From Heptranchias perlo (Eukaryota): 64,000 nt of DNA. A model generated the notes under the pieces. It ran no database searches. It had not been told where the DNA came from and saw only the letters and a list, made by a program, of their open reading frames with translations. The position numbers and the translations under genes are program-made. Below are positions 8,662 to 47,419 of this stretch, in pieces. Positions within the stretch are counted from its first letter, which is position 1. Each line of letters begins with the position of its first letter. The stretch is taken from NCBI RefSeq assembly GCF_035084215.1, contig NC_090340.1, forward strand, positions 14,570,001 through 14,634,000. Direction: 5' to 3'.

Positions 8662-9770
8662 TTTTTTTATTTGTTCATGGGATGTGGGCGTCGCTGGCGA
8701 GGCCGGCACTTATTGCACATCCCTAATTACCCTTGAGAAGGTGGTGGTGAGCCGCCTTCTTGAACCGCTGTAGTCCGTGTGGTGAAGGTTCTCCCAAAAT
8801 GCTGTTTGGAAGGGAGTTACAGGATTTTGACCCAGCAACGATGAAGGAACGGCGAGAAATCTCCAAGTCGGGATGGTGTGTGACTTGGAGGGGAACGTGC
8901 AGGTGGTGTTGTTCCCATGTGCCTGCTGCTCTTGTCCTTCTAGGTAGTAGAGGTCGCGGGTTTAGGAGGTGCTGTCGAAGAAGCCTTGGCGAGTTGTTGC
9001 AGTGCATCCTGTGGATGGTACACACTGCAGCCACTGTGCGCCGGTGGTGAAGGGAGTGAATGTTTAGGGTGGTGAATGGGGTGCCAATCAAGCGGGCTGC
9101 TTTGTCCTGGATGGTGTCGAGCTTCTTGAGTGTTGTTGGAGCTGCCCTCATCCAGGCAATTGGAGAGTATTCCATCACACTCCTGACTTGTACCTTGCAG
9201 ATGGTAGAAAGGCTTTGGGGAGTCAGGAGGTGAGTCACTCGCCGCAGAATACCCAGCCTCTGACCTGCTCTTGTGGCCATAGTATTTACATGGCTGGTCC
9301 AGTTAAGTTTCTGGTCAATGGTGACCCCCAGGATGTTGATGGTGGGGGATTTGACAATGGTAATGCCGTTGAATGTCAAGGGGCGGTGGTTCGACTCTCT
9401 CTTGTTGGAGATGGTCATTGCCTGGCACACGTCTGGCGCGAATGTTACTTGCCATTTATCAGCCCAAGCCTGGATGTTGTCCAGGTCTTGCTGCATGCGA
9501 GCACCTACTGCTTCATTATCTGAGGGGTTGCAAATGGAACTGAACACTGTGCAAACATCAGCAGACATTCCTATTTCTGACCTTATGATGGAGGGAAGGT
9601 CATTGATGAAGCAGCCGAAGATGGTTGGGCCCAGGACACTGCCCTGAGGAACTCCTGCAGCAATGTCCTGGGGCTGATATGATTGGCTTCCAACAACCTC
9701 CACCATCTTCCTTTGTGCTAGGTATGACTCCAGCCACTGGAGAGTTTTCCCCCGATTCCCATTGACTTCA
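8662..9770 (-). mobile_element. LINE, same family as the element at 26205-29478, 5'-truncated
   Basis: 327-aa ORF (GVPQGSVLGPTIF..FINDL, WADKWQVTF) nearly identical to 28432-29415; A-rich tail reads as T-run at ~8662. Confidence 0.9.
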
Positions 9771-10289
9771 AAGGGACATACCCTCTACTCTTCAATTCCT
9801 GTTGATGCACAGGTAGTATGTTGGGAAATTCTGCAAACTGGGCATATTCAGAACGCAAAAATTACAGGCTGGAAAATGCTGCAAACTACAGAAACTCAGA
9901 ATGCAGAGATGAGGTGAAAGTTTCCTCCAACTGCTGTGAGATAAAAATATCTAGTTGAAGTCTAAGTTTTTGAGATAGGTGACAAACAAAGACTTTAATG
10001 AAGGTTTTAAAGGACACAAGAGTGAATTGAATGGGTAAGTTTAAACAATAGCAAGATTAAGAGATTATCATTTTATTTGTCCTCTGTTAACAGATACAGA
10101 GTTAACATGAAAAGATATCAAAAACTTAAATTTTAATATAAAATTGATTTGCTGATTGAATTCTACACTCTAGTGCTAAAATGTGCTCGGTCTCGGATGG
10201 GTGGTAATATAATAATTACATAACATGCGGCCATTACGGTGCAGTGCGATCAGTATATACCGATAAATTGGTTTCAGTATCTAAAATTG

Positions 10290-13200
10290 TACGCACTTGC
10301 TTCTGTGTACGTGGCTTCTGTTACCCCTTTTAGGATTTTCGCCTGTAGCTCGGAATACTCCGTACTTCTTTCGTTTTTTTTTAGATATCCCCGTTTTCTT
10401 GGAGCAAGTCAATTCTAGAGTCGCCTACGTCGACTTGTCACGGGCTGTTTTTCATCGTGAAGTCACGATTTGGATTGTTAATTGGTTGTTTTACCAGTTT
10501 GTGAATTGCTGGTCAAAGCAGTTATCAGCCTGAGATTAAATACACGGTCAAAGTCAGCACAAGACGAAGTACTCCTCCATCGCATAAATCTGGATGCTCC
10601 ACACGAGTACCCTATTCCTCTCTGAGTGTTTCTCAGTCCTACCTGACCGTACGATGTCCTCTCCTTTTCACATTTACGTCCTGGAGTTTTCTTGTTGCTG
10701 CTTCTCGGTTCTACATAACGTGCGCGTTCCTCTCCTCTTCACGTTTAGGTTGGAGCTTGATTTAGTCTGATCAAATTTAATTCTCACCGCTGCTCCCCGC
10801 ATGGGCTGCAAAGAAAGCATTTTGTTCTGTGGTTATTTTACTGTGCCAGTTTACATACGCCTGGCCAAACATTGATCACCATGACCGGGGCTACAAATAA
10901 AGTGCAGAAACCATAGTGGATACATTTAAATAGGTGAGAAAATGAAGACCGATCACTAGTGCGGTCACTGCAACTGATATTTCAACCTGTCAATATTCAC
11001 ACCACAATACACTGTTACAAACGAGTTGAAATGAGCGACAACATCAGAACATGTCTGTGTAAGGTTATACTCCACACACACGATTTGACGAATCATTAAA
11101 TAGTTTTATCTGGTTACATATTTAACAAACCTAACTTTAATTATGTACTTTTTAACCATCAACAGAAGCAATGTTCCGTTTGCTAAATATTTTTCCTAAT
11201 TTTTTTTATTCGTTCATGGGTTGTGGGTGTCGCTGGCAAGGCCAGCATTTATTGCCCATCCCTATTTGCTCTTGAGAAGGTGGTGGTGAGCCGCCTTCTT
11301 GAACTGCTTCAGTCCGTGCAGTGAAGGTTCTCCCGCAGTGCTGTTAAGAAGGGAGTTCCAGGATTTTGACCCAGTGAGGATGAAGGAATGGTGGTATATT
11401 TCCAAGTCGGGATGGTGTGTGTCTAGCGTGAATGTTACTTGCTACTTACCAGCCCAAGACTGGATGTTGTCCAGGTCTTGCTGCATGCAGGCACGGACTG
11501 CTTCATTATCTGAGGGGTTGCGAATGGAACTGAACACTGTGCAATCATCAGCGAACATCCCCATTTCTGACCTTATGATGGAGGGAAGGTCATTGATGAA
11601 GCAGCTGAAGATGGTTGGGCCTAGGACACTGCCCCGAGGAACTCCTGCAGCAATGTCCTGGGGCTGAGATAATTGGCCTCCAACAACCACTACCATCTTC
11701 CTTTGTGCTAGGTATGACTCCAGCCACTGGAGAGTTTCCCCCCTGATTCCCATTGACTTCAATTTTACAAGGGCTCCTTGGTGCCACACTCGGTCAAATG
11801 CTGCCTTGATGTCAAGGGCTGTCACTCTCACCTTACCTCTGGAATTCAGCTCTTTTGTCCATGTTTGGTCCAAGGCTGTAATGAGATCTTGAGCCGAGTG
11901 GTCCTGGCGGAACCCAAACTGAGCATCGGTGAGCAGGTTATTGGTGAGTAAGTGCCGCTTGATAGCACTGTCAACGACACCTTCCATCACTTTGTTGATG
12001 ATTGAGAGCAAACTGAAGCGGCGGTAATTGGCCGGATTGGATTTGTCCTGCTTTTTGTGGACAGGACATACCTGGGCAATTTTCCACATTGTCGGGTAGA
12101 TGCCAGTGTTGTAGCTGTACTGGAACAGCTTGGCCTGGAGCACAAGTCTGCAGCACTACAGCCGGGATGTTGTCGAGGCCCTTAGCCTTTGCTGTATCCA
12201 GTGCAATCTGCCGTTTCTTGATATCACGTGGAGTGAATCGAATTGGCTGAAGACTGGCTTCTGTGATGGTGGGGATATCGGGAGGAGGCCGAGATGGATC
12301 ATCCACTTGGCACTTCTGGCTGAAGAGGTTGCAAACGCTTCAGCCATGTCTTTTGCACTCACGTGCTGGACTCTGCCATCATTGAGGATGGGGATGTTTA
12401 CAGAGCCTCCTCCTCCCGTTAGCTGTTTAATTGTCCACCACCATTCACGACTGAATGTGGCAGGACTGCAGAGCTTTGATCTGATCCGTTGGTTGTGTAA
12501 TCGCTTAGCTCTGTCCATAGCATGTTGCTTCCGCTGTTTAGCATGCATGTAGTCCTGAGTTGGAGCTTCACCAGGTTGGCACCTCAGTTTTAGGTACGCC
12601 TGGTGCTGTTCCTGGCATGCTCTTCTACACTCCTCATTGAACCAGGGTTGATCCCATGGCTTGTTGACAATTACGATTTGAATCACTCTAGAGGGACAAA
12701 TGCTTTTGTGAGTAAGAGTTGAAGTGTTCTGACATGTTTGTGATAAAATCCCTTCATTTTATAATCTTTTTTCACATTTGAACCTTCTGCCTGGATGAAT
12801 TATATAAGCGTGTCAGTTACCTACCGGTCCCATTAGACTTGCCCGGGAATCAATGGAATTTAATTGAGCAAGTAATTGGAATATTTACTCAATATCCATG
12901 TTCGTGATTTCAAATACATTTTTCTTGTCAGTGGAAAGCCTTGCATCATTCTCAATATCACATTTATCCGACAGCGTTTGTAATCCCGGCCCGTGTAACG
13001 ATCTGCAATCATGAGCAGCCACTCCGGGCTTCACTCATACTAGTTACAGCTCGCAATGGACTGATATTAAAAGTGACGACGTACGAAGGCAGATTTCACA
13101 TATCAACTACTCTAAAATGAATATTTCTGCTCTCACTACCGAGATATTCCGACCCATTTATAATATGATTCTGTGAGGATCGCTACACTTCAAAATGTCT

Positions 13201-13465
13201 AACGTATTGCTGTTTGCTGCAATCGCCAATCGGTGTGCCTGTGGCCCCGGACAACGCTGCTTTCAGTTTTCAGTGATGCACCAGTTCTTCTCCCTTTGTG
13301 TCACCTGGGACCGTCTCGTTCTCCCTCTGAAGTTTTGTAAAAGAAACAACAGTAAACGTAAAACTGTGCGGTATCGCGCCCCGGTGATGATCATAACCAT
13401 TAGAAATGCGAATCTAGAAAATACACACCCTGAAACCCTGACGTAAGAAAGCATACCGCTACAAT
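10290..13465 (-). pseudogene. IgSF receptor copy E: TM exon and cytoplasmic exons only
   Basis: The reverse complement aligns with copy B exons 4-7 and their introns. TM exon starts at 13465 (DCSGMLSYVRVSGCVFSRFAFLMVMIITGARYR) with the donor lost. Exon-5 relic at ~12808-12850. Exon-6 relic at 10643-10796 has AG>GG at the acceptor and an internal duplication. Exon-7 relic has the ITIM Tyr TAC>TAG at 10425-10427. Confidence 0.8.
11200..12672 (-). mobile_element. LINE, same family as 26205-29478; 5'-truncated with internal deletion, inserted in an intron of copy E
   Basis: RT ORFs 11442-12143 and 12156-12686; junction at ~11420 skips part of the C-terminal region; T-run tail at ~11200. Confidence 0.9.
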
Positions 13466-14321
13466 CTACAAGACACCAGCATCTAAATCCAGCTCCCGTT
13501 GCCTCTTTGTGGGTGAACAGTCCAAAGCTTGGTGAAATCTGCTTGTGATGTTTATCCAAGGATAAAAAGCGATTTCGCAATAAATCCTTGACTGCCAGAA
13601 CCTAATTTTCCCTGTGGCAGCTTTTCAGAAATTTCCTGCTTAAATGCACCTTATGTGTTTTGTATAACCCATTTTGTAGTCCAGTTCTGATTGAATTGTA
13701 TGGAATCCATGGATCAACGCGAGAATCACATTGCTCTTGCATCGCATCACATCGGGAAATCTGCAAAACAGGATTTCATCCAAAGTCTTGCAGATAACGG
13801 CACTGTGTATGACATGCGTTCTATAAAGCCTGGTTTAACCCCTTGTGGTCAGTTTCTATCTTTACTGCTTTAAATAATACACTTCTAGCGACTTGCCGCG
13901 TCTTACTGTTTCTTTATGTCCCCTTACGCCTAAAGGAATGTATTATTGCTTTTAGCCTGAACACATTAGTCTAACGATGTGTCCTTGGAGAAAACGAGAG
14001 CATGGATTGGGCATTCTGCATAATCTTCGATGCACCATCCTGCATTTGGCAGGTAATTATTAACCCCTACACCCTTGTGGCACAATGACTATGCAGGTTT
14101 CGATTCATAGGGGATTTTCTTCTGCTTATGAAACCATCGTTTCTGCAGTGGCCTAAAGTTACAAGTATTGAAAGTTCAGTCTGTTACAATCTATTTCCTG
14201 AATCAGCAGCCATATGCCCAACGTCACTGCGACACAATTCGTATTACACAGTCCGCAACCACCTTTACATTACCAAATCCATGCACAGTGCGGGAGCAAT
14301 CACCTTACTCCTTTGCTCAGA

Positions 14322-14987
14322 ATGTTGACGAGTTTTGTATTTCTCCTGAAGATCATTTACACAGGTACCTACAATTCTATAACCCAGCTGCCTCGATAAA
14401 AAACATGTGAAATGGTTTCCGCTGAATCACCATGAAATTCAAATCTCTCCCAATTTTGCTGATTTCTTTGTTTCATCCTCACGACGTATCTAATAAAATT
14501 AACCAAACTTTGAATCTATTGCCTCACAGCCGCTTCTAATATTTCGATCAGTCACTTAACTTATTGGACATGCAATTAGATTCAGAGGGACACACATCAC
14601 CTTCTACTGGATATTCCACTGAACACAAATTCAGTGAAATTTAGATAATCTTCGCGATTCTTCTTCACCTCTTTCATTTGTAGGTAGAAGTGTGTTCCAA
14701 AGTGTTCGGTTTCACGTCCAATACAATTAACCACGTATATTTTCTAACATCTGCGGCGCATACTTCGATCAGAGTGGCTCAAATTCCCGAACATGTGATT
14801 GCATTAAGAGGGACAGACATCGTGTCCTACTGTGTAATCTCCCTCTCTCAGGACAACTCTTGAATAGACGTGTGTTGGTGGAAACAGGTTGTGAATGGAC
14901 CTGCAAAGTGGAACGGATAACAGAAAATCATTTGGTATGAAAATGAAAGAAGGCGGTTTCTTTCAGTTGCTGAACGCGACTTTAAGA
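14322..14987 (+). pseudogene. IgSF receptor copy A: leader exon plus truncated V exon
   Basis: Leader 14322-14364 (MLTSFVFLLKIIYT, acag|gtacc as in copy B). V exon from 14751 has acceptor AG>AT, TGA at 14861-14863, a WWKQ motif and a frameshift, and is cut at ~14987 by a CR1 insertion. Confidence 0.85.
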
Positions 14988-18230: not shown

Positions 18231-18285
18231 ATGTCGGCGAGTATGGTGTTTCTGTGCTTGACGCTCCGGGGGATTATTTACACAG
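18231..18285 (+). CDS. Copy B exon 1, leader (MSASMVFLCLTLRGIIYT)
   Basis: ATG, hydrophobic stretch and phase-1 donor acag|gtacc; homologous exons in copies A and D. Confidence 0.75.
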
Positions 18286-21200
18286 GTACCTCTTTATTCA
18301 CAGTCCCCACAAGAATAGCTAATTTAATTAATAAAATGATTCTGAAGCAGTTTCTACTTAATTGCAATTAAGATAATTCCTCTATCTAGATTCATGTTTT
18401 CTCTCTTCCATCTCCATGTCGTATCTAATACAATTAACCTATACTGAACTATATTTTCTGACAGCTGCGGACCACAGTTCGTTCAGAGTGACTCAAGCGC
18501 CCGAACAGGCGACTGTATCCAGAGGGGGAAACGTCACCTTCCACTGCATATTCCCAATCTCTCAAACCCATTCCTGGGTAAGAGTATATTGGTGGAAACA
18601 GGGTGAGAATAAATACCTGCCAAGAAGCGGCGATAAGAGAAAACGATTTGGTCTGGAAGGTAAAGCGAGCGGTTTCTTTCAGTTACTGAACGCGAATTTC
18701 CAAGACTCTGGAGTCTATCACTGCGCAGTGATCCGAGAGGGAACAGTTGGAGGAAATGGAACCGCATCTCATCTAATTGTGCATGGTAAGTGTGAAACAC
18801 CACAGAGCGGGACTGTCGTAAACATATCAAACATAACAAACGGGAGTGTTTTGTGATTGTTTTATTGTACAATTTTTGACAGCATAAATATTTTTATGAA
18901 CACATTTCGCGAGAAAGTTAAGCTGTATGTTCGTGCTCTCTGTATAGAACTGCCAATTAGAGAGTAAAATGTGACCCTCCACACGCAGGGTACTGCAACA
19001 TGTATTAATATTAAGGAATTGGACTGTAACTCCAAATAAATTTATACACCAGATAACTGATAGCGGAAGTTCGGATAATTTCCAAGCTGAGTGATAATTG
19101 TTTATATTAATGCGCTTTCCCCACCATATACACCGGTCTTAGCCAATTTTAGATGCTCTGTCTGCCCCCACCGCTGTCTTGGGGTTTAACATTCATGAAA
19201 TTAATTCTCACACGATGATTGACTAGTTAGCGTCACAGATTTGAAAGCCAGCGTCCAACTAACTGTTGATTAACGGATTCACTCAACAAACTGGAGCTCG
19301 GAATTCACAACGTTATCACCTCACTAACCCCCAATAAATACAATAATACGCAGGAACTGTGTTGCTGAAACCTCCTGAAGTTCAACCGAATATAGTTTCT
19401 TTCACCAATCGTTATGCTTCGGCTGTGGGATCAGTCCGATACCTTCTAATGCCCTCGTTTTATCATCGGCAATGTGTAGATTACTCGATTACTCGTCACT
19501 TTCTAACTGAGCAAAAAAAAATGGAGGACTGGGCGCGCCAACTTTCCCCCAGGGCTTATTTCTTTAATTCTTTGGACTATGAAACGTGACATTGATTAGC
19601 GATTGTTGCGACGTGTCTGCCGTTTAACTCAAAGTTTTGGACTCGATGGTGCATGTAAAATTGAATATATGCTGGTGACGATAAATGATATGGTTGAGGT
19701 GTGTGTTGACGATCTGCCTAACATTGACAGGACAGGAGGGTGTGCTTTAGAATGTTGCTGTTAGAACAAAATGGACCAAAGGTGCCCAGTAACTCGATTT
19801 TGATCATTGTCTGTTCCGCAGCTCCCCCAACTCCACTGAAGATTGTCTCCAGGACAGCTGAGGGGAATTCATCTGCGTCTCTGACTCTTGTGTGTGAAAC
19901 GGCTGAGTTTTTTCCGGAGAATTTCACCCTCGCTTGGTATAAAAACGGCGTTGTAATTGCAACAGGAATAAATACCATTAAACGGCAGAACACTGAGGGG
20001 CTGTATGAAGTTTCCAGCTCTTTGGAAGAGACGCAGCCTGTCCCGAGCGACGCCAATTATACCTGTTTGGTATCTCACGTCTCGCTCAACATTCCAGCTG
20101 TTGCCACCTATAGTGTTACGAAATCTAACCAAGGTACGAGGCCAACAGTCCGAAAAGGATAGTTAAAATCGCAAACAGATATATCGTAGAATTTGTACAT
20201 ATTGATAATCATGAAGATAGTTCACGGGAAACTCATGGGGAATATCAACGAAAACATAAACATCTTCTTTTAATGTATAATATAATTGAACCCGATGTGT
20301 TGTAAAATGGGGTTATATCGTCCGGTACACAAATATTCTCAGTCAAACCTTGTTTGCTTTCAACTTCCTCTATTTGAGGTATAACAAATATAAACAGGAG
20401 TTTATCTTTTGTATCCCATTATATTTCTCTCCTGCTCATTATTAATACTTATCCGGGTTTTTTCTATATTAAACTGGTTTTATTCTGCCGGCTTTCCCTG
20501 CATCAGGACAATTACCAAGAGCTTCATTGGACGTGTTTGCTCTTTGGCTTCTTCCAATGCAGTTCTCAATCCTGAAATCCCCCTCCTCCTTCCGGCTGTG
20601 TCTTGTGCAGAGTTCTGAACTTAAACCGCTGTCCAACTTCTGCCCCACATCTCTCCATGCCACAGCGGGTTCAATTGGGACCTGTCTCATAAATCTCATG
20701 TAAACTGTACCCGCAAATTGGTTACAGTGCATCCGGTTCACTATATCATTTTATTAACAAATCTTAGCTTTGCCAGACAATAATTAATAAACCGCCGCCC
20801 GTTGATCTCCTTTATATTCAATGACATTTTTACTTCAATAAACACAGTGCGGATAATTGAATGAGGATTATTAACCAATTGCTGCAATCCAGAATTTTGT
20901 TCGGGCAGCGAGTAAACCCGTGTGAACAAATTCACCCCGATTTCGTCAAACTATATGTTAATAAATAAGAATGGTCAAGGACATAAACAAGTCATTCGGT
21001 CCAGGGAAATTTATCCCCCTAATTGTCCTAAAACATTGTTTTGAGATCCCTAAACAGTAGTCACCTTCGCAGATTATTCCAGAACATCTCATCCATTCGA
21101 TGAAGAAGTTACTTCAAATATATATAAAAAATGAACGTTTTTTTATTTACACTTCCTTATTGTCATTCTATACAGCGGAATTACTGAAAGCATCAATAGT

Positions 21201-22870
21201 TTAACCAATTAACTATCTTGCGGCCTCTTTTTATCAAACGCCCACCATAACTTAATATTCCTATTAATCTTGCAGCTACTGTCATTGATGTGTCCTTTTA
21301 CTTCTGGGCTCTTGGGTGTGCGATGGGTGGATTGGCGTTTCTAGTGCTGTTGATCGTCATTGGGAAGCGGTGCCGTCTGCAGAATAAAGAAGGTAAGATC
21401 TACTGTAAAAGCTTGATTTTAGCCCGAGACCTCAGGGTGACACAGAGGAAGCAGAACTCGATTATAACTTAAAGTTGAAAGGAATGTTACCTGTTTTCAG
21501 GGAGCGCAGATTGTTCCAACTACACATTACAACGCAGAAATCTCTACAGAATTGTATTAAAATTTGCGATAATTATCTGGATGTTTGCAACAGAAATTGA
21601 CAATTTACAGCAAGTGATAAATGAACTGTGCCCTGGCACACAGTCACTTTCCAACCCATTACTCTGTGGTTGCGTAATGAGTTTGAGTGAAACCGTGTGA
21701 GGCCCCGGCCCGGGAATGGTTGTGCACCGTTGTTAATCGCTACAGGGGCTGGGATTCAAACATTGTCAGCACAAACTGAAATTGAAAATTATGTTCGCTT
21801 TCTACCGAATCTAGAAATTTCTTTGAAATCACTGAATGGAAACTGAGTAAATGTGTCAATCTTTCAATATCATTAAATTTCATTCGTTTCCAGGTAAACA
21901 GGGGCGTGTAATGGGACCGACCCGCCATGAAGAGCTGGTACGTTCATTCATTCATCCTCTGCAGAGAGTTCAAATGTGAAGAAAGGTTGCTATAATGGAG
22001 AGATGTTATCACAATCATGTCAGTACGTTAGGTGGCGGACAAGAAAACTGCCAGTTTCGTTTAAAATGTACCGATGTAATAACAGTTTATAGATTAATCC
22101 ATTCCTTTAATTTGAAAAAATACTTTATGTTCTAAAACTGCCGTTCATTTAAACATTTCTGGAACATAGTATTGTAGAGTGAATATTAACAGGTTTAAAT
22201 ATTAGTTATAGTGACCACAGAACTCATTGGTCTCAATATTCGTATTTATGCCAATATATTAATTATGCTTTGTACACTTGATCTCTAGCCCAGGTCATTC
22301 TGTTCAATGTTTGGTCAGCAGTACGTAAAGTGGTGAAGGCAATGAACTAGCCACGTAATCAATCATTTGCTTTGTTGCCCATGCAGGGAACGGAGGCTGA
22401 GATCGTGCATTATGCTGCATTAGATTTGAGCAAAGCCAGGAAAACTCCAAGACTTAAAGGTGAAGAGGAGAGAACCGTGTACGCTCAGGTAGGGCTGAGT
22501 AACAGATCAGAGAAACATAGATCATGAGTGTAACACCAACATTCATGCGATAGTGGAATATTTCGGGTTGTGCTGACTTTGATCGTGTGATGTATCTAAA
22601 ACTATTTGTGTATTATTCTGACGACTGCTTTGAGCAGCAGTCCACAAAACTTGCAAAACGACCAATCAACAATATTTCCAAACATTGGCTTTACAGAACA
22701 AACAAGGGGCAGCCCGTGACAAGCTGACATACGCAACGCTAGCATTGACTGGCTCAGTGAAAAGGGCGCAATGCAAAAATAACGAAAGAAGCACCGACTA
22801 TGCCGAGCTACAAACGCAAAACCAAAGAAGAGTAACAGAGGCTGTTTACTCCGAAGCAAGAATCAAATAG
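18231..22870 (+). CDS. Intact IgSF inhibitory receptor, leader-V-C1-TM-ITIM tail (SIRP-alpha-like / VJ-C1 type), 374 aa, 7 exons (copy B)
   Basis: Exons 18231-18285, 18465-18785, 19822-20133, 21276-21392, 21894-21937, 22387-22488 and 22697-22870. All introns are GT-AG, phases 1,1,1,1,0,0, total 1125 nt with no internal stop. Confidence 0.88.
18465..18785 (+). CDS. Copy B exon 2, Ig V-set domain
   Basis: VTQ.P...G.NVTFHC, VYWWKQ, L.N..FQDSGVYHCAV, GNGT..L.V; 321 nt, phase 1-1. Confidence 0.93.
19822..20133 (+). CDS. Copy B exon 3, Ig C1-set domain
   Basis: LTLVCETAEFFP, WYKNG, GLYEVSSSL, YTCLVSHVSL; 312 nt, phase 1-1. Confidence 0.93.
21276..21392 (+). CDS. Copy B exon 4, transmembrane
   Basis: FYFWALGCAMGGLAFLVLLIVIG followed by KRCR; no charged residue in the TM; tgcag| acceptor and |gtaag donor. 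Confidence 0.88.
21894..21937 (+). CDS. Copy B exon 5, 44-nt cytoplasmic linker
   Basis: tttccag|...ctg|gtacgt; converts phase 1 to phase 0 as required; homologue at 44018-44059. Confidence 0.7.
22387..22488 (+). CDS. Copy B exon 6, ITIM (VHYAAL) plus TVYAQ
   Basis: atgcag|gga...cag|gtaggg, 102 nt, phase 0-0. Confidence 0.82.
22697..22870 (+). CDS. Copy B exon 7, ITIM (LTYATL), TDYAEL, AVYSEA, stop
   Basis: ttacag|aac; open to TAG at 22868-22870. Confidence 0.85.
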   Translation, partial: NKQGAARDKLTYATLALTGSVKRAQCKNNERSTDYAELQTQNQRRVTEAVYSEARIK

Positions 22871-29000: not shown

Positions 29001-29612
29001 AACAACACTCAAGAAGCTCGACACCATCCAAGATAAAGCAGCCCGCTTGATTAGCACCCCATCCACCACCCTAAACATTCACTCCCTTCACCACCGGCAC
29101 ACAGTGGCTGCACTGTGCACCATCCACAGGATGCACTGCAGCAACTCGCCAAGCTTTCTTCGACAGCACCTCCCAAACCTGCGACCTCTACCACCTAGAA
29201 GGACAAGAGCAGCAGGCGCATGGGAACAACACCACCTGCACGTTCCCCTCCAAGTCACACACCATCCCCACTTGGAAATATATCGCCGTTCCTTCATTGC
29301 CGCTGGGTCAAAACCCTGGAACTCCCTTCCTAACAGAACTGTGGGAGAACCGTCACCACTCGGACTGCAGCGGTTCAAGAAGGCGGCTCACCACCACCTT
29401 CTCGAGGGCAATTAGGGATGTGCAATAAATGCCGGCTTGCCAGTGACGCCCACATCCCGTGAACGAATAAAAAAAAAATTGAACGAGCATCAACTGCCAT
29501 TTGCAGAAGAGCGTTCCAAACTTCTACCATCCTTCATGTGTAGAAGCATTTACTGACTTCACCCCTGCAAGTCCTGGCTCTAATTTTTAGTCTACGCCCC
29601 CTGGTCCAAGTG
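26043..29612 (-). mobile_element. CR1 3'-tail fragment split by the 26205-29478 insertion
   Basis: 26043-26204 (...gatttaaaattaacaat) continues at ~29477 (aattgaacgagcatcaactg...) as one CR1 tail. Confidence 0.7.
26205..29478 (+). mobile_element. Apparently full-length ~3.3-kb single-ORF LINE (APE endonuclease + RT, CR1/L2 group) with tRNA-like 5' head
   Basis: A-box-like gtagcatagtgg and B-box-like gagttcaaatcc at 26213-26290. APE motifs (VLLTNIWGL, GDFNV, LDLVLTN, DH) from ~26630, then RT (LDIKAAFDRVWH, VPQGSVLGP, FTDD). A-tail at the 3' end; a few frameshifts and stops. Confidence 0.9.
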
Positions 29613-32330: not shown

Positions 32331-32828
32331 TCCTGTAGTTTCTTATAGCAAATGTTATGCTTACGCTGTGAGATCTGTCCGATACCTACTAATGCCCTCG
32401 TTTTATTGTCGATAATGTGTGGATTACTCGTCACTGTCTATCTGTGTGTATCAACCGTGGAAGAACCAGGCGCGCCATCTTTTCCCCAGTGTTCGATCAT
32501 TTAATTCTTTTTGGAATATGGAGCGCAGGCATTTATGAGAAATCATGTAATGGGTCTGTTTGAAAATTGCGATTAAAGTTGAATAATTTAAAGGCTTGGG
32601 CTCAATAATAACACAAGGTGCATCACAGGTGGAATTGAACAGGGGCCGGTGACCATGAGAGATATTGCTGAGGTTTGCGTAGATGACGTGCGTAACATTA
32701 AAAAGACAGGATAATGGCTTTCTAATGGTGCTACTACAATACAATAGTTCGAAGATAAATCATAGTGATGTTTGGTATCACCCAATGCTACCCAGTAATC
32801 TGATTTTGCTCCATTCTCTGTTCCGCAG

Positions 32829-33138
32829 CTGCCCCAACTCCGCTGAAGATTCTCTCCAGGACACCCGACAGCAATTGATCTGTATCTCTGACTTGTGTGT
32901 GAAAGGGCTGAGATTCATCCGAGAAATTCCACCCTCCCTTGGAATTAAAATGGCATCGTAACTGCGATAGGAATACAAAACATTCAATGGCAGATCACTG
33001 AGTGGCTGTATGACGTTTCCGGCTCTTTGGAACAAACGCAGCCTGTGCCGAGCGGCGCCAGTTATACCTGTTTGATATCTCATATGTCGCTCGAGACTCC
33101 ACCTGTGGTCACCAACACGGTTACTAATTCTAACAAAG
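32829..33138 (+). pseudogene. IgSF receptor copy C: decayed C1 exon
   Basis: ttccgcag|ctgccccaactccgctgaag matches copies B and D; TGA at 32876-32878, frameshifts, YTCLISHMSL retained, aaag|gtac donor. Flanking intron homology spans 32335-35490. No leader, V, TM or tail exons found. Confidence 0.88.
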
Positions 33139-33221
33139 GTACAAGGCCAACAGTCCAAGGAGAGCCAGCTACTGTTAAATTCTTAAAGAGATATTTCATA
33201 AAGTTCGCTCATATTAATAAT

Positions 33222-38044: not shown

Positions 38045-40310
38045 TACATTCGAACCAGCCTTTGTGTAGAGAGTATTTTACCTCTCCCTTTATTTTTTGA
38101 GATTATGTTCAATTTGTGGTCAGTCGTTACAGTCTACTGACCACTGGAAACAATCTATCATTATTACCTTATCATAACGCCTCATGCTCTTGAAAGCCTC
38201 TATCAGGTCACTGCCTAAATTTTTCAACTCAAGTGAAAGGTGTCCAAGCTTCTCAAATAATAACAACTCCACATTCCTGGTAATAAAGCCTGCCCCTTTT
38301 CAATTGTTTTTATATCCTTCCTTAGCTTTAGAAAAGCTCTTACATCAGTTGAAGATTATCTCCTTGAAATTGTATTCAATGCCACCAAATACAAAACCAT
38401 GACATTCCCTTGCATCTTTATTGTACAATAAACTTCTGCTGCCATCATTATTTAAGGTCCCTTTGCTGCTCTCCATTTAGAATCCTATAATTTTTGATGG
38501 ATTTCCTATTCTTTCTTCCAGAAATGTACTATTTTACATTTTTTTACATTCTCCATGGAATATTTATCTGCCCTTCGAACTAACTATCGATGTCGCCTGC
38601 AGGATTTCACAAGCTGCATCAGAATATCCGTCTTACCTCCCCATTAGGTGTTATCAGCAAATTTTAATGTTGCTCCCTCAATTCCCCAGTCGAGATAATT
38701 AATCTTTATAACAAATATAAGCAGCTCAACACAGACGCCGGGGAACATCTCTCGGCACGCCTTTCAACTCGGAGAAGCGTCCTTTTACCCTTGCACTTTG
38801 TTTTCTGTCCTCCAACCATCTCTGTATCCACCTGGCCACCTTGTCCTTACTTCCACGTGCCTTTGTGATATGTGGTATCTTATCAACTACGTTTTCAAAA
38901 TTCATGCAATCTACATCTGCGGTACTCTCTTTTTCTCTATCCTCTCTGTTATTTCTTCAATTCATTCTTTGAATCTGTTTTTTTCGAAATCCGTACTGCC
39001 AGGACTTGATTAGCTTAGGTTTCTACAAGTTTTATGCCGACTGACGTAGGTCCTGCTAAATGCGAGTAAATGTGCAACTGTTTACCTGTCATTTTATGTT
39101 TCAGGTTGCTTCACATTCTATTTTCTCATCTATTTACAACTCGTTGGCTTCGAGATGAAGATTAAGTCAACGTGGTGTAGATTATTTTGATAATTAGTTA
39201 ACCGAAAGTGATACATTCATGGGTAATGGTACAAAATTAAAATTTGGGCGTTTTGTGTTCTGTGTCCTGCGTTGTGATACAATGTAAGCTATCAACGAAG
39301 TGTTGATTTTAGCTGCACCAGATGTTTTGCGAAATAGGTACACTAGCGAATCGTTTTATCGAGCTAAATAAACAAACGGTTAAGTAGTTCAGCTCGAAGC
39401 ACCACCTGCTCAAACTTTAAATTTAGGTCTGTTAATTCCAACATCATCAAAACGTGCCGAAAGTCAAATAATGGTAGTTATTAAACACCATGTTTCAATG
39501 TAATTGTGATAACATACGATATTCACATTCAACTGAGATACGATTTCATATTTGCCGTTGTAACATCTGCTATCATCATCAATAGTACAGTCTGAAATAT
39601 ATAATCCCCTTAAGGCGCCTGTTTGTATTCCATTCTTTCCAATTTCTTCTATTATATTAAGTGTAAGGTAAACCGCAAAAGTGTTTCCTAAATACATTTT
39701 CTGGCGTTTCATTTATTCATCGGTACACAAATACAGTGAAATTGGTTAAACCCATGACACTTGGCATAATTTCTTCGTGTACTGCAATACTGTAAGATTA
39801 ATCACACGGGCTTCCAAATTGAAGTTCTTGGTATTGTCCAAAATGTCAACAGAGTTCGGCTAAAATGAAGCGCATGTTATTTAGTCGCCCCATAATTGTA
39901 ACTATTTATGTGACATGTTATGAAGAACGTTACTCATTCAAGTTGTTCCTATCGCGTGTTTTACGCCTGAGAACTAGAGATTGGAGGCGATAAAGGAGGA
40001 GATTTTGCAAATACTTTTGAATGCGGCATCTCACAGCCCCGCTCCAAACACATTAGGGCACTGGGCAAAGGGAAGAAGTCCGCATTCGGGATATCACAGG
40101 AGAGGGAATTCCACATGGAATTCCTGCTGCTCGACCGCCCGGCAGCACCAGTTCATAACAAGGGGTGACTGGAAGACAGTAATAAGTGGAGAGTTATTTC
40201 CCTTTAAAACATTGTAGGAATATAAGATAAATCTGTTATGAATATCTGTGTTAGAAGAAGCAGAATCGGTGAAATTGACACCTGTTTTGAGAAAGTAAAA
40301 TGTTGGTAAG
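38045..40310 (+). repeat. Intergenic segmental-duplication unit upstream of copy D
   Basis: Colinear with ~47615-49350, ~54600-56740 and ~23660-24375, and in reverse with ~1850-2150 plus 3960-4400 (e.g. ctaaataaagaacatggctc near 55965 vs gagccatgttctttatttag near 4151). Confidence 0.8.
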
Positions 40311-40781
40311 CGCAAAGTGATCGTGACACGGGCGACTGCACTGGTTGCTTAGGAACAAAACGGTCAGCAAATCTCACTTCACCAACGAAACCGATCTTCC
40401 GAACCTGCAGATACAGGGTGTAGAACGTCATTGTGACGCATTTCAGCTTAAATATTCAGCAGACCCTTCTTCTAATGGCAAACTCATGATCAGTGCAGTC
40501 TGTGATCAGAGTAATCTTTTACTCGTAATGTTGTCGAGTGTAATACTTCTGTTCCTGCACCTGTCTCTCGGGGAATTATTTACACAGGTATCTTTTATTC
40601 TCTATCCCAGCTGTCTCAGTAAAAAATGCACCTGAAGGTGTTACCACTTAAACTGAATGACATTTAGTTCGTCTGTCTATATTCTTCTTTCTCTAATTTA
40701 TTTCCATGTACAAATATTTTCTAAAGTGCCTGGTTCCACATAGCATATAAGTAACCAGATCTTTAATATATTTTCTAACAG

Positions 40782-41084
40782 CTGCCGCGCGTATTTCTCA
40801 ACCCCCCGAACAAGTGATTGCATTAAGGGGGGCAGATATCACCTTCTACTGTGTAATCCCGCTCTCTCAGGACAACTCAGAAGTGCATTGGTGGAAACAC
40901 GGCGAGAAAGAATATTTGCAAACAACGGCCGATAACAGAAAGCGATTTGGTGTCAAAAATAAAGAAGCCAGTTTCTTTGAGCTGCGGAACGTGACTTTCC
41001 AGGACTCTGGAATCTATCAATGCACAGTGATCCGTCAGGGAAGAGTTCGTGGAAATGGAACGGGCTCAAATCTAATTGTGTGCG
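40782..41084 (+). CDS. Copy D V-set exon (intact)
   Basis: ISQPP...GADITFYC, VHWWKH, FQDSGIYQCTV, GNGTGSNLIV; 303 nt, AG/GT intact. Confidence 0.85.
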
Positions 41085-41460
41085 GTAAGTGACTGGGGTG
41101 AGTGGGAACTTCCAAATGTATCAAATGTAACAGTATAAAACATTTATATTAATACATTTACAGTCAAACTCAATGTCACTCCGATTTCTCTGTACATAGC
41201 TGTTAATTACACCGCACAATATGGCGCTTCATTTGCTGAGTTGTGTGAAATTCCATCAATATTAACCAGAGTAAGTAACATGTTACTGGATTCATCTCAA
41301 CATGTAGTTTCTACATCAGACTTCTGATGAGGGAAGGTGCGGAACAAATTCCAAACATATTGATGACTGATTCATATTAATGCGTCTCCCCCGTCATATA
41401 CAGGGGTTTAACCCTATTTTAGAAGCTTTATTTGTCCCTGTCGCTGTCAGTGGGGTTTAA

Positions 41461-41506
41461 CGGTCACTCCTGAAATTAATGCTCACATTAATTTCAGGAG
41501 TGACCG
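41461..41506. repeat. Perfect 21-bp inverted repeat with 4-nt loop
   Basis: cggtcactcctgaaattaatg-ctca-cattaatttcaggagtgaccg. Confidence 0.95.
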
Positions 41507-44500
41507 AATGGCGGTTCGAATGGCGGATTTCAGATAAGCTACAATTAACTGTTAATCATTGGATTTACTCAACACATAGAACCATGAACCAGAACTTTGC
41601 CGCCGCTTTCCCCTGCAATAAACGAATCATTCCCCAGAAATTGTGTTGCTGAAGCCTTCTGAGGTTGAGCGGAAAGTAATTTCCCTGAGCCGATCCCATG
41701 CTCCTGCTGTGTGGGCTTCCCGATATCCACTAGGGCCCTCCTTTCATTATCAGTAATACACAGATTACTCGTTTCTCTCTTGGGGAGACAGACAGACAGA
41801 GCTAGAGATCCTAACAGAGAAGGACAGAGGATGCCATTCTTCTCCCACATCTTCTGTTTCAGATCTCCCCAGAAACCTGATTTTCCCCATTTTCTGTCCG
41901 CAGCTGCCCCAACTCCACTGAAGATTGTCTCCAGGACACCCGAGAGCAAATCACCGACTTCTCTGACTCTTGTGTGTGAAACGGCTGAGTTTTACCCGGA
42001 GGATTTCACCCTCACTTGGTATAAAAATGGCGTCAAAACCACAACTGGGATAAATATCACGAAACGCAGAACACTGAGGGTCTGTATGAAGTTTCCAGCA
42101 CTTTGGAAGTGACTCAGCCGAAGCGGAATGGGTCTGTTTACACCTGTTTGGTAACTCATGTCACCCTCCAGGAACCCGCCATTGTAACCTACAATGTCAG
42201 CAATTCCAACCCAGGTAAGGGGTCGAAGAAGTGAGGTCAGCTATTGTTAAATACTGAACGGATATTTCATAGGGTTTGTTCATATTAATAATCATGAAGA
42301 TGATTCACGGATAATTCACGGAAAACTCATGGGAAATTTCTACAAAGCATAAAATGCATATTTTAATGTAAAACATCATTGACAACGGGTAGTAAAAGCT
42401 GAAGTTATATCATTCGCCACACATAGGTATTCAGTCAAACCTCAATAGCCTTCAAATTTCTGTATTTGATGTAAAGCAAATATAAGCAGAGGTTGATTTT
42501 TGTTATCTGATTATATTTCATATTCTGCTTATTATTTATCACATTTTATTTATTTTTGTTTCCATGTTAAAATGGTTTTATTCGTTACTATTATCTAGCT
42601 TTCCTGCAACAGGAAGATTACCAGGAGCTACATTCAAGTTGTCGGCTCTCGGGTTTCGCCGAATGCAATTTGCGATCCTGACCCCCCTTTTCGGCGACTC
42701 CCAGTGAAGAGTTCTGAAATTAATTCTCTGACTAACTTGTACCCCTCACCCCTCCATGGCACAACGGATTGGAGTGGACCGGTCTCATAAATTGCATTGA
42801 AACGGTGCTCACAACCTGGCTGCAGTTCTGCCGGTTACACCGTTTTATTAAAAGCTATTTGCCTGGTCAGGCGACAGTGAATAAACCATCGCGCGTTGAT
42901 CTCCTATTTTGCGATATTCTTACCTCAATAAATACAGTGCAGTGTAGATGTGTGAATTGGGCGTTTTAACCGATTTCTGCAATTCGGCATTTTGTGCGGG
43001 CAACGGTGAAATGATTGTCACCGAATTGCCTGCGATTTGATCAGACAATAAATAAAGAACATGAGAAAAGTCAAGGGTAAGAACAAACCATTCGGTCCAG
43101 GGAAACATCCCTCTCGTATTCTACCTCTTCTAAAACAGTGTTTCAAAAGTCATAAATTCAGTACCCCTCCTCGAAGATAATTCCAGAAATGTCTCATCCA
43201 TTTCAGACATTTGAGAAATTCCTTCCAACATTATATCCAAAAAAGTAACATTTTTAATTTAGACTTCCTTATTGCCGTTCTATGCAGTTACTGAAAGCAT
43301 CATTACTTTAACCAATACGCTCTCTTCTGGCACCTTTTTAGGAAACACCCGCCATAACGTACAACTCAATATATATGCTCCTATTGTTCTTACAGATCCT
43401 GTCGGTATGTCTCTTTACTACTCGGGTTTTAGATATGCCATGGGCGGTGCGGCGTTTCTAGTGCTCCTGGTCATCACCGGGACGCACTGCCAATTGCAGG
43501 TTAATGAAGGTAAGATCTATCGTAAGCGTTCGATTTGCATACAAAACTTCAGGGAGCGGTGGGGAGAGGTAGTGTGAGACTCCGAATAACACAAAGAAGG
43601 CAGTGTTATCTGATTTCAGGGAGCGTCCATTGTTCCAACAGTAACAGATTCTGCACTTTATCCTCACAGAATCAGATTAAAAATGGATCCGATTACCTGT
43701 ATATTTGCAACAACAATTTCCACTTTGCAGTGTGATAAACGAACTGTACCCTGACACATAATCACTTTCCAAACTAGTGGGTTGTGGGTCCCCAACTAGT
43801 TTGAATGAAGCGGTGTGAGGCTCCGGCCGATAATGGCCATAGGTCATTGCTGATCTCTACCGGGACTCCGATTCATTAACTATCGGTACAATCTGAAATT
43901 GAAAATCATGTTCCGCTTCATACTGGCTCTGGAAAGGTCTTTGAAATCACTTTGAAATCTTGGAAACTCAGTAAATATTTCAATCGTTCCTTATAATGAC
44001 ATTTCATTAATTCACAGGGAAAAAAGGCAAAGACTGGACCGAACGGTCGTGAAAGGCCGGTACGTTCATCCATTCATCACAGCAAAGTGTTCAAATATGC
44101 AGAAAGATTGATATCATGGAGATATTTTTATCATAATCATGTCAGAACAGTTTGCCTATTTCCTAAAAGTATTTGTTTTGTTCCGCTTAATAGGTCATTC
44201 AAATCGTGTTCAGAAAAATATTTGACGCTGGCGGGGAAAGATTTCACCCCCGAGGGCGAAATTGGTTTTCGGAAAAGAAAGGCGAGTGCAGTGTACAACG
44301 GGCGGCCGCTTCCCTATCGCCCGTTTCGCGCTACCGCCGAAGGCCAATTTCACCCAGTCTCCGGTGTGTTGCTATTTTAAATTATTAATTAGTAGAAAAT
44401 AAAACTGTCAGTTTCGTTGAAAATGTATCTAAGTAATTACTGTTTATAGAGTCAATATTATTTATAATTGGGGAAATTCTTAATATTGTGGAACAACCGC

Positions 44501-44577
44501 TCATTTAATCATTTATGTGGTGTATAATGAACATTGACGGGTTTACATAATAAGTTATAGCGAGCACAGTACTCAGC

Positions 44578-45850
44578 GGTCAGTTTGGGTTCCGCCAGGA
44601 CCACTCGGCTCCAGACCTCATTTCAGCCTTGGTCCAAACATGGACAAATGAGCTGTATTCCAGAGGTGAGGTGAGAGTGACTGCCCTTGACATCAAGGCA
44701 GCATTTGACCGAGTGTGGCACCAAGGAGCCCTAGTAAAATTGAAGTCAATGGGAATCAGGGGGAAAACTGTCCAGTGGCTGGAGCCATACCTAGCACAAA
44801 GGAAGATGGTAGTGGTTGTTGGAGGCCAATCATCTCAGCCCCAGGACATTGCTGCAGGAGTTCCTCAAGGCAGTGTCCTAGGCCCAACCATCTTCAGCTG
44901 CTTCATCAATGACCTTCCCTCCATCATAAGGTCAGAAATGGGGATGTTCGCTGATGATTGCACAGTGTTCAGTTCCATTCGCAACCCCTCAAATAATGAA
45001 GCAGTCCGTGCCTGCATGCAGCAAGACCTGGACAACATCCAGGCTTGGGCTCATAAGTGGCAAGCAACATTCGCTCCAGATAAGTGTCAGGCAATGACCA
45101 TCTCCAACAAGAGAGAGTCTAACCACCTCCCCTTGACATTCAATGGCATTACCATTGCCGAATCCCCCACCATCAACAACCTGGGGGTCACCATTGACCA
45201 GAAACGTAACTGGACCAGCCATATAAATACTGTGGCTACGAGAGCAGGTCAGAGGCTGGGTATTCTGCGGCGAGTGACTCACCTCCTGACTCCCCAAAGC
45301 CTTTCCACCATCTACAAGGCACAAGTCAGGAGTGTGATGGGATACTCTCGACTTTCTTGGATGAGTGCAGCTCCAACAACACTCAAGAAGCTCGACACCA
45401 TCCAAGATAAAGCAGCCCGCTTGATTGGCTCCCCATCCACCACCCTAAACATTCATTCCCTTCACCACCAGCGCACAGTGGCTGCAGTGTGTACCATCCA
45501 CAGGATGCACTGCAGCAACTCGCCAAGGCTTCTTCGACAGCACCTCTCAAACCTGCGACCTCCACCACCTAGAAGGACAAGAACAGCAGGCACATGTGAA
45601 CAACACCACCTGCACGTTCCCCTCCAAGTCACATACCATCCCCACTTGGAAATATAACGCCGTTCCTTCATCGTCGCTGGGTCAAAATCCTGGAACTCCC
45701 TTCCTAACAGCACAGTGGGAGAACCGTCACCACACGGACTGCAGCGGTTCAAGAAGGTGGCTCAGCACCACCTTCTCAAGGACAATTAGGGATGGGCAAT
45801 AAATTCCGGCCTCACCAGCGACGCCCACATCCCATTAACGAATAAAAAAA
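44578..45850 (+). mobile_element. LINE, same family as 26205-29478, 5'-truncated, in copy D intron 5
   Basis: 342-aa RT ORF 44629-45657 and A-rich tail at ~45841-45850. Confidence 0.92.
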
Positions 45851-47419
45851 CATTCCCACTTATGTAACAATATTAATTATGGTTTCTGCAGTTTATCTCT
45901 TGTCTACGTTGTTTTGTTCACTGTTTAACTCGTAGTCTGTAAACTATGAACTAGCAAATGAACTAGCAAACATACCAAAACATATACTTGTCCATGGCCC
46001 ATGTAGGAAGCAAAGGCTGAGATCGTTGATACGCTGCTTTCGGTTTGAACAGAACTCATTAAACTTCAAGACGTAAACTTGAATTGAAGAAGATTGTTTA
46101 CAATCAGGCGGGGGTGGGAAGCGGATCAGACAGACACAGATCACCAGCGTAGCACCAATATTCATGAGATAACGGAAAATATAAGGCTGGCTGACTCTGG
46201 TCGTGCATTGTATCTAAAGCTGTTTGTGTGTTATTCTGTTGATTATTTTCGGCAGCAGTCCACAAACTGGCAAACCCACCAATTAAAAATATTCCCAAAC
46301 ACGGGTTACAGACCAAAAATGGACCCTAGCGACTCTAGGCTCCCAAAAAATGGGGAAATCCCAAAATAACAAATAAACACAGATTAACATATTCCAGTAT
46401 TATATCATTCAAAGAAGGTGTAATTGTTTGTTATTGCTTATATGTTTGAGGAATTTTCATTGATTTACCTGTACGAAAAACTTACTTTCTTTGTACCTTT
46501 TTGATCAATCTGTTATGTTTTGCAGATGAGAAATCTCTGCAATTATATACGAACTGTTTTTTTTGTACCTGGTTATTATCATGCTTAACTTCAATAAAAA
46601 TAGATGTTCTACGATTTCTCTCTTATCAACCATTAGTGATAATTTTTCTTCTCGAGAAAAACTGCAAAACCTGAATTTTGATCTATGTGTTGGCTTGGTG
46701 TATTGTGACTTCCAGTCCAGGCGATTCTCCTGATGTGGAAGGCAGAACGCTCCAATCTATGGACTCGTCCATAAACCCACTGAACCCAGCTTGCATTTGA
46801 TGGAACATGAGGTGCCTTTCTCTAATTTCTGAATGAATATCCATTTAGCCCAGACAATTCCAAGTGGCTCCCAAAGGAAATGCCCCGATTATTCTCATTA
46901 TGCTCTCTCTTCAAAAGGACAGAGATTCTAGACAGTTCTGAGACAAGCAACAAGAATGAATCCGGGACCTGGCAGTTAAGTTGTGAGAAAAACCCCACGG
47001 AGCCGATTGCATTTTTATTGGAGGTAATAACAAATTACAAAGGATTCAGCCCTTTAAAATGTTGAAAGACGTGGCTGATGTAGATAAGCTCGCTGTGTGA
47101 CTTCACACGCAACAACAGGTTCTGAATTAACAATTCCCAAAGAAGAGAATAGATTTACAACCATTTTTTACTGTGGCTGTTTGTTCAGCTGGGGGATAAC
47201 TAGTAGTTTGAATGGTTAAACTGTCATCTATTTGGAAGTAGATCACTTGAATTACAGGGTGAGAACTATCTGGTTGCTGGAAGAATAGCAGCCCAACAGT
47301 TCCAGCGACTAAGCCTTCAACTCAGAAATTAAAGATAATACAAGACGTAGTGAATCGGTTGCATTTTATTTGGCCTAACTGTCTTTGTTTGATGACTCTG
47401 TGCATTAACAAGCGTTTTA

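What the first reader, a model, noticed from the sequence alone, without database searches (positions are those of the whole stretch)
40528..46330. Copy D looks like the activating half of a paired-receptor system
Seen: the V and TM exons are open, and an Arg (GFRYAMGG) replaces the Gly of copy B (ALGCAMGG) at the outer TM edge. Exon 5 ends in an early TGA (GKKGKDWTERS*). Exons 6-7 are heavily eroded: 1-nt deletion, in-frame TAA, YAAL>YAAF, GT>GC donor, LTYATL deleted. Established: paired receptors combine ITIM forms with short-tailed forms whose basic TM residue recruits FcR-gamma, CD3-zeta or DAP12; Arg near the outer TM edge occurs in NKp30, NKp46 and LILRA. Inference: uneven decay (tail lost, ectodomain kept) suggests selection for an activating or tail-less paralogue next to inhibitory copy B.
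Basis: partly seen in the sequence, partly recalled or inferred. Interest (0 to 1): 0.75.

Follow-up and report, generated by a model that had tools for sequence, protein, structure and literature searches.

The report
Shark paired receptor, broken activating copy
Sharks and rays have a family of antibody-like surface receptors in which many members carry long tails with inhibitory-type motifs while others carry a membrane arginine and a short tail that would likely switch the cell on; this copy is of the second type, but as assembled it is broken by two single-base losses in its outer part.

Summary
As assembled, D makes no receptor. Copy B equals a RefSeq sevengill-shark protein; relatives form a V(J)-C1-TM multigene family in sharks and rays. 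Arg sits at exactly D's column in 14 of 73 members; none of these has two distal ITIM/ITSM-like motifs, against 29 of 59 others (p=0.0005). One smooth-hound pair shares 97% of its ectodomain but differs in TM and tail. D's TM matches a catshark Arg receptor with a 5-residue tail, and its ectodomain is not B's sister. Contigs of one sample show +1 base at both lesions, so an intact D-type haplotype likely exists, though paralogues could explain the C1 signal. Adaptor binding and expression are untested. Verdict: an apparently undescribed paired-receptor family; D is its recently broken activating-type member.

The parts
40528..40587 (+). D exon 1, leader; 60 nt, one base short near codon 15 (about 40567-40573), out of frame with V
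   Evidence: Heterodontus P0001 leader has the 20-codon+1 layout; contigs show net +1 between 40559 and 40603 (from record lengths and from_end values)
40782..41084 (+). D exon 2, V domain with J-like GxG end; open; phase 1-1
   Evidence: Pfam V-set E 1.8e-8; 72% to P0001, 65% to P0158, 55% to B
41904..42214 (+). D exon 3, C1-set domain; 1-nt deletion after 42065, stop at 42110; both splice sites intact; phase 1-1, so skipping keeps the frame
   Evidence: (both halves hit PF07654)
43396..43509 (+). D exon 4, TM; Arg codon AGA at 43431-43433, followed by 17 uncharged residues
   Evidence: best family match P0009, 20 of 27 identical
44018..44059 (+). D exon 5; 2 nt shorter than B's, shifted frame ends in TGA at 44050-44052; tail about 19 aa with no Tyr
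   Evidence: covered without gaps in runs X1 and X4
44580..45850 (+). Young LINE (reverse-transcriptase ORF remnant) inserted in D intron 5; absent from B's intron
   Evidence: 92-95% identical to copies at 8662-9771 and 28206-29475; ORF
46007..46107 (+). D relic exon 6: 1-nt deletion, TAA at 46060-46062 in B's frame, YAAF, GC donor
   Evidence: D-branch pN/pS 1.19 on 17 codons
46312..46440 (+). D relic exon 7: LTYATL region deleted, further small indels
   Evidence: (D-branch pN/pS 1.16 on 27 codons)
18231..22870 (+). Copy B, intact 7-exon gene (18231-18285, 18465-18785, 19822-20133, 21276-21392, 21894-21937, 22387-22488, 22697-22870), 374 aa, V-C1-TM, tail with three ITIM/ITSM-like motifs and two further tyrosines
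   Evidence: same sequence as RefSeq model P0152; AlphaFold model with two Ig domains and one long helix 235-269
14322..14983 (+). Copy A: leader and broken V exon (acceptor lost, stops, frameshift, cut by a LINE)
32826..33140 (+). Copy C: broken C1 exon (stops, 2-nt deletion); serves as a dead control, branch pN/pS 1.41
10280..13468 (-). Inverted relic E: TM exon (Gly at the Arg column) and tail exons

Best explanation
Copy D descends from a short-tailed, arginine-bearing member of a shark V-C1 receptor family that would likely signal through an ITAM adaptor, and the assembled haplotype is a recently broken version with single-base losses in leader and C1, while an intact D-type haplotype likely persists in the species. 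Shown: family architecture, the Arg/short-tail versus ITIM/long-tail split, purifying selection on D's V and C1 with neutral drift of its tail, the two frameshifts. Inferred mechanism: the exon-5 frameshift cut off the tyrosine tail long ago; the Arg in the outer third of the helix pairs with the Asp of a zeta-family dimer (CD3-zeta or an FcR-gamma-like chain), giving ITAM-Syk/ZAP70 activation, while B-type members recruit SHP-1/2 through ITIM/ITSM pairs. Inferred origin: Arg-TM modules are repeatedly joined to different ectodomains by recombination or conversion, and activating copies are often lost, as in other paired families.
For: Arg at D's exact column in 14 of 73 de-duplicated family proteins with a called TM; tail over 65 aa in 0 of 14 vs 42 of 59 (p 7e-7); two or more distal ITIM/ITSM-like motifs in 0 of 14 vs 29 of 59 (p 4.5e-4). 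Arg occurs in 20 of 81 rows at that column and in 0-1 at each of the three columns before and seven after, so it is position-specific. 16-18 uncharged residues follow it in all 20 Arg rows, with hydrophobic columns before it; the equivalent G243 of B lies 8 residues into predicted helix 235-269. Mustelus P0158 (Arg, ~13 aa tail) and P0212 (Gly, Tyr motifs) share 229 of 235 ectodomain residues but 12 of 25 in the TM region; Heptranchias P0167/P0156 share 111 of 119. On a V+C1 tree of 59 rows the Arg label needs 12 changes, like shuffles (13.5). D-branch pN/pS: C1 0.34 (p 0.0012, 93 codons), V 5' part 0.38 (p 0.047, 60 codons), exon 6 1.19, exon 7 1.16; dead copies C and A 1.41 and 1.59. No nonsense codon in D's 788 nt of leader-V-C1-TM. 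Contigs from two DNA runs cover the leader with a net +1 base and five substitutions, i.e. another haplotype about 97% alike, and a G is put in behind 42065 in 26.4 of 26.4 depth (X1) and 80.4 of 145 (X4).
Against: Pairwise B-D dN/dS intervals overlap: V+C1 0.48 (0.34-0.70), tail 0.66 (0.39-1.13); the branch tests for exons 6-7 rest on 17 and 27 codons. D's TM exon shows no significant constraint (0.80, p 0.48). Exceptions: P0056 has the Arg with a 76-aa tail and one motif, P0167 a 61-aa tail; 15 of 59 non-Arg members also have tails of 50 aa or less; all relatives are predicted gene models. The NxxR motif of known FcR-gamma partners is absent (Asn at -3 in 1 of 15, D has Ser), and one survey found no FcR-gamma in sharks (PMC4016189). 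The G at 42065 may come from paralogues: Heptranchias P0082 has the same local peptide across the break and depth over C1 is several times baseline. The leader +1 is placed only within 40560-40602, which includes 15 intron bases; all runs are one sample. No Heptranchias protein matching D came back from three searches.
Confidence: 0.55

Rival explanations
1. Both single-base losses are assembly errors, and D is an intact activating-type receptor in this animal.
For: Both lesions are -1 at or beside G runs; in X1 all depth listed at 42065 carries the G, at about two-haplotype depth; no nonsense codons in the ectodomain.
Against: The leader contigs carry five substitutions next to the extra base in both runs, so they are another haplotype or gene, not a corrected read of this one; 64.6 of 145 depth in X4 is not listed with the G.
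Confidence: 0.15
2. D is a fixed pseudogene that died in two steps (tail first, ectodomain recently); the +1 contigs come from near-identical paralogues elsewhere in the cluster.
For: Two independent frameshifts on one haplotype; copies A, C and E nearby are dead; at least seven other Heptranchias family proteins exist; no D protein retrieved.
Against: The leader contig matches D at about 97% across flank, exon and intron, far closer than any copy in the window (73-80%); contig depths fit two haplotypes of one locus.
Confidence: 0.2
3. The Arg/short-tail forms do not activate: they are non-signalling decoy or adhesion receptors (like SIRP-gamma) that compete with ITIM members for ligand, the Arg merely anchoring at the head-group layer.
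For: No NxxR motif; hydropathy alone puts the best 19-residue window of D just after the Arg; adaptor presence in sharks is disputed (PMC4016189).
Against: Strict position specificity of the Arg and its exclusion from multi-ITIM members; the column lies inside a 22-23 residue apolar span in B.
Confidence: 0.2
4. D survives by alternative splicing as an NKp30-like V-TM receptor: C1 skipped, leader rescued by a downstream donor.
For: Skipping C1 gives an open V-TM-short-tail frame; phase-1 GT sites at 40613 and 40619 keep the leader open; C1-less family models exist (P0010, P0033, P0093, P0115).
Against: The canonical donor at 40588 is intact and the alternatives are poor matches; C1 was under the strongest constraint of any D exon, so the C1-containing form was the selected one.
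Confidence: 0.07

Closest known systems
SIRP family (SIRP-alpha / SIRP-beta / SIRP-gamma)
   Same: J-like V plus C1-set ectodomain; inhibitory member with paired ITIM/ITSM-like motifs; short-tailed members. SIRP-alpha (2wng) is the best-ranked membrane receptor for the family profile, V+C1 in one stretch, E 4e-30; RefSeq auto-names many members SIRP-like.
   Different: One C1, not two (PMC12975943, passages); activating-type members use an outer-third Arg, whereas SIRP-beta couples to DAP12 (its mid-helix Lys is recalled, not from a call); antibodies and UrIg2 score as high, so orthology is not shown.
LRC-type FcR-gamma partners (LILRA, NKp46, GPVI, Fc-alpha-R, PIR-A; Xenopus XFL TM1)
   Same: Arg at the N-terminal end of the TM with a short tail, paired with uncharged-TM ITIM forms (PMC2413239, PMC3533184, passages).
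   Different: They carry NxxR and non-C1 ectodomains; here Asn at -3 in 1 of 15 and the ectodomain is V-C1.
NKp30 (NCR3)
   Same: Non-rearranging VJ domain, TM Arg that binds CD3-zeta/FcR-gamma (PMC6514059, passages).
   Different: NKp30 has one IgV only; no NKp30 chain among the 32 matches of D's V; this family has a C1 and many ITIM members.
Non-rearranging VJ-C1 genes (UrIg, UrIg2, PRARP)
   Same: Unsplit VJ exon followed by C1; UrIg2 is the top match of B's C1 (E 1.4e-16).

Membership tests
Paired receptor family (definition in PMC3533184) | Members with very similar ectodomains but opposite signalling modules | tested here: met
   P0158/P0212 97% ectodomain, P0167/P0156 93%, P0019/P0157 89% (two species); B versus D only 55% in V and 69% in C1
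Paired receptor family (definition in PMC3533184) | Inhibitory-type members with ITIMs and an uncharged TM | tested here: met
   B has three ITIM/ITSM-like motifs; 29 of 59 non-Arg members have two or more distal motifs
Paired receptor family (definition in PMC3533184) | Activating-type members with short tail and basic TM residue | tested here: met
   13 of 14 Arg members have tails of 50 aa or less; 15 of 17 with three members added by eye
Paired receptor family (definition in PMC3533184) | Genes clustered | tested here: met
   Five copies or relics in 36 kb; family proteins of each species share one longest-contig length
Paired receptor family (definition in PMC3533184) | Association with an ITAM adaptor; expression on overlapping immune cells | not testable with these tools
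Paired receptor family (definition in PMC3533184) | Copy D itself encodes a full-length surface protein | tested here: not met
   Frameshifts in leader and C1 in the assembled sequence; read contigs hint at an intact haplotype
SIRP | V-C1-C1 ectodomain | tested here: not met
   One V and one C1 in B and D
SIRP | Orthology by synteny or tree; CD47 binding | not tested
   No flanking genes in the window, no genome held, no SIRP rows in the tree
LRC-type FcR-gamma partners | NxxR motif at the TM N-terminus | tested here: not met
   Asn at -3 in 1 of 15 Arg rows; D has Ser
NKp30/NCR3 | Single IgV ectodomain | tested here: not met
   A C1 exon with intact splice sites and past purifying selection lies between V and TM
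NKp30/NCR3 | TM arginine | tested here: met
   AGA at 43431-43433
NKp30/NCR3 | MHC linkage | not testable with these tools
   No genome held
UrIg | Secreted VJ-C1-C1-C1 homodimer | tested here: not met
   B has one C1 and a TM exon
PRARP | Sequence relationship and linkage to PRARP genes | not tested
   No PRARP sequence or paper text was found

The most novel reading that the evidence does not exclude
Cartilaginous fish have their own large paired-receptor system built on an antigen-receptor-like VJ-C1 ectodomain, in which two ancient Arg-TM modules are swapped onto different ectodomains to make activating twins of ITIM receptors, coupling to a zeta-family adaptor without the NxxR motif, and D is a segregating on/off activating locus in it, comparable to presence/absence variation of activating KIR or LILR genes.
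Probability: 0.4. Interest if true: 0.75.

Novelty: new variant of a known kind. Interest (0 to 1): 0.55.

Why it matters
One genome survey found no LRC-type or Fc-receptor-like paired receptors and no FcR-gamma in sharks (PMC4016189). A clustered family with ITIM and Arg/short-tail twins in sharks, rays and probably a chimaera would give the oldest jawed-vertebrate lineage a concrete candidate for balanced innate recognition, on the non-rearranging VJ-C1 scaffold discussed as the precursor of antigen receptors (PMC10751288). The 97%-identical Mustelus pair makes ligand and adaptor questions directly testable. Copy D itself matters less: it is a broken example.

Tried and rejected
No whole genome is held, so synteny and copy number were not examined. 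Run search: no RNA holder listed; two runs guessed to be RNA, of three listed, laid nothing on D's exons; this says nothing about expression. Only 40300-44550 was laid, on 4 of 7 listed runs, so exons 6-7 have no read check; the indel table was cut (12 rows not shown), which is why the leader base is placed by arithmetic. Pairwise dN/dS did not separate ectodomain from tail; three-way branch counts did. Solved-structure search with D's V alone gave only generic Ig hits. Fold search of the B model gave a flat list of V-C ectodomains (B7-H6 Z 16.6, rmsd 3.8, 193 aligned; SIRP-gamma Z 13.7, rmsd 6.2, 204 aligned), not diagnostic. The first motif count (p 0.016) was blurred by juxtamembrane matches and isoforms and was redone. 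Rows left out: 43 of 123 family hits had no TM called (three of them Arg forms, added back by eye in a second count) and 7 isoform or duplicate rows; 17 of 76 labelled rows lacked a full V or C1 and are not in the tree. Rejected: NKp30 orthologue, SIRP-beta-type Lys receptor, B as D's specific partner, Arg as a chance change. Literature: nine answered searches (less none; ten in all) listed no description of this family; only the top 20 rows were seen where more matched, and the library lacks most subscription journals. Ohta et al. 2019 was not held and a second look-up found nothing; shark NCR3 and PRARP papers in J Immunol and Immunogenetics (recalled, not seen) could already cover the family. 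No supplements were read. Earlier scan notes: none. No complex was predicted because no adaptor sequence was at hand.
Full report
Setting. The window holds LINE remnants and five copies or relics of one immunoglobulin-superfamily gene; no other gene was seen among 64 ORFs of 110 aa or more. Copy B is an intact seven-exon gene for a 374-aa leader-V-C1-TM-tail protein, the same sequence as RefSeq model P0152, labelled 'tapasin-related protein-like' of Heptranchias perlo. Pfam calls a V-set and a C1-set domain, and AlphaFold gives two Ig domains and one long helix at 235-269.

Observation. The exon-5 stop comes from a 2-nt shortening, not a point change, and is covered without gaps by contigs of both DNA runs laid. 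Two things were missed. The leader exon is 60 nt, phase 0, in front of a phase-1 V exon, so translation stops after 31 residues; there is no other in-frame ATG. The C1 exon lacks one base after 42065 and stops at 42110. As assembled, D encodes no receptor.

Uneven decay. Pairwise B-D dN/dS is 0.48 (0.34-0.70) for V+C1 and 0.66 (0.39-1.13) for exons 5-7, which overlap. Using dead copies as third sequence, changes can be put on D's own branch: pN/pS 0.34 for C1 (18 silent, 19 replacement, p 0.0012), 0.38 for the 5' part of V (p 0.047), 0.80 for TM (not significant), 1.19 and 1.16 for exons 6 and 7; the dead copies score 1.41 and 1.59. Two lesions in 788 nt of ectodomain and TM against at least five in about 273 nt of tail gives p 0.015. 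So the tail died early, the ectodomain stayed under selection for most of D's history and broke late.

Family. Searches with D's V, with P0002 and with a D-based alignment returned a chondrichthyan multigene family. Of 218 proteins held, 123 matched B's ectodomain, 80 had a TM called, and 73 remained after removing isoform duplicates. Fourteen have Arg at exactly D's column. None of them has a tail over 65 aa (42 of 59 others do) or two distal ITIM/ITSM-like motifs (29 of 59 others do; p 4.5e-4); with three low-hydropathy Arg forms added by eye it is 0 of 17. Exceptions are P0056 (Arg, 76-aa tail, one motif) and P0167 (61 aa), and 15 of 59 non-Arg models also have short tails. Arg forms are named from Scyliorhinus canicula, Mustelus, Heterodontus, Chiloscyllium, Heptranchias, Hypanus, Hemitrygon and Mobula; P0160 is probably Callorhinchus, inferred from its accession series. 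Near-twins exist within species: P0158/P0212 (229 of 235 ectodomain residues, 12 of 25 in TM) and P0167/P0156 (111 of 119). On the V+C1 tree the Arg label needs 12 changes, no fewer than shuffles, so activating-type TMs are scattered across ectodomain lineages; D groups with P0158, P0212 and P0179, not with B, while its TM best matches P0009, whose ectodomain is B-like. The TM modules may stem from only two or three origins, so the p values overstate independence. All relatives are predicted models.

Arg placement. Sixteen to 18 uncharged residues follow the Arg in all 20 Arg rows, and the four columns before it are mostly hydrophobic or aromatic; B's equivalent G243 lies inside the predicted helix, about seventh of a 23-residue apolar span. 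Hydropathy of D alone puts the best 19-mer just after the Arg, so the edge is not sharp. The NxxR motif of FcR-gamma partners (PMC2413239 and PMC4536121, passages read) is absent.

Is D dead? Contigs of one sample (4 of 7 listed runs laid, possibly the assembly's source, so not independent) cover the leader with five substitutions and a net extra base, placed between 40559 and 40603 by record arithmetic in X1, and show a G behind 42065. Exactly one base restores the leader layout seen in Heterodontus P0001. The substitutions argue for a second haplotype or very close paralogue rather than a simple assembly slip. The C1 signal is ambiguous because paralogue P0082 has the same local peptide and depth there is several times baseline. 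No protein matching D was retrieved in three searches.

Mechanism. Most likely B-type members inhibit through ITIM/ITSM-SHP recruitment and D-type members activate by pairing the Arg with the Asp of CD3-zeta or an FcR-gamma-like dimer, as described for NKp46 and NKp30 (PMC6514059, passages) and for paired receptors generally (PMC3533184, passages). Both steps are inferred. PMC4016189 (passages) reported no FcR-gamma in sharks, which favours CD3-zeta if it still holds; I could not test it.

Comparison and novelty. The family works like a paired-receptor system and looks most like SIRPs among membrane receptors, but has one C1 and an outer-third Arg, so it is not filed as SIRP, NKp30, LRC or UrIg. 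The fold search was not diagnostic. Ten literature searches showed no description; PMC10751288, PMC12227049, PMC11599192 and PMC12975943 were read as passages only and discuss VJ or VJ-C1 genes or SIRPs without this cluster in those passages; key subscription papers and all supplements were unseen. Verdict: new variant of a known kind; the family is the finding, and D is a recently broken activating-type copy. Interest 0.55.

Noticed in passing
P0040, P0064, P0113, P0114, P0160, P0167, P0196 (TM region): A second Arg-TM class has an Asp or Glu exactly 16 residues after the Arg at the cytoplasmic edge; it may couple to a different adaptor. P0082 has the same TM with Gln in place of Arg.
   Followed up: partly
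window 44050-44059, 46108-46109, 46593: D's stop lies 7 nt before the exon-5 donor; if the GC donor of exon 6 is not used, exon 6 becomes terminal and the short-tail mRNA would escape nonsense-mediated decay. An AATAAA at 46593 lies in sequence homologous to B's at 23202.
   Followed up: no
window 10280-13468, minus strand: Inverted TM-and-tail relic E without V or C1 in the window; its exon 7 still shows past constraint (branch pN/pS 0.22), while its TM exon shows 19 replacement to 1 silent change.
   Followed up: partly
P0010, P0033, P0093, P0115; P0154, P0180: Family models lacking C1 (V-TM-ITIM tail) and models with a duplicated V or V-C1 unit, suggesting exon skipping or shuffling.
   Followed up: no
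window 41470-41515: A short direct duplication in D intron 2 is missing from contigs of both DNA runs (15 gap letters), another sign of a second haplotype.
   Followed up: no
window 8662-9771, 11200-12666, 27456-29475, 44580-45850: Young LINE copies 92-95% alike, in both orientations, inside the cluster; possible substrates for the rearrangements that shuffle TM and ectodomain exons.
   Followed up: no
window 41862-42145: Contig depth over the C1 exon is several times that of nearby introns, showing more close C1 paralogues elsewhere in the genome.
   Followed up: partly
window 43392: All listed contigs in both DNA runs show G instead of the window's A just before the TM acceptor, as in copy B.
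   Followed up: no
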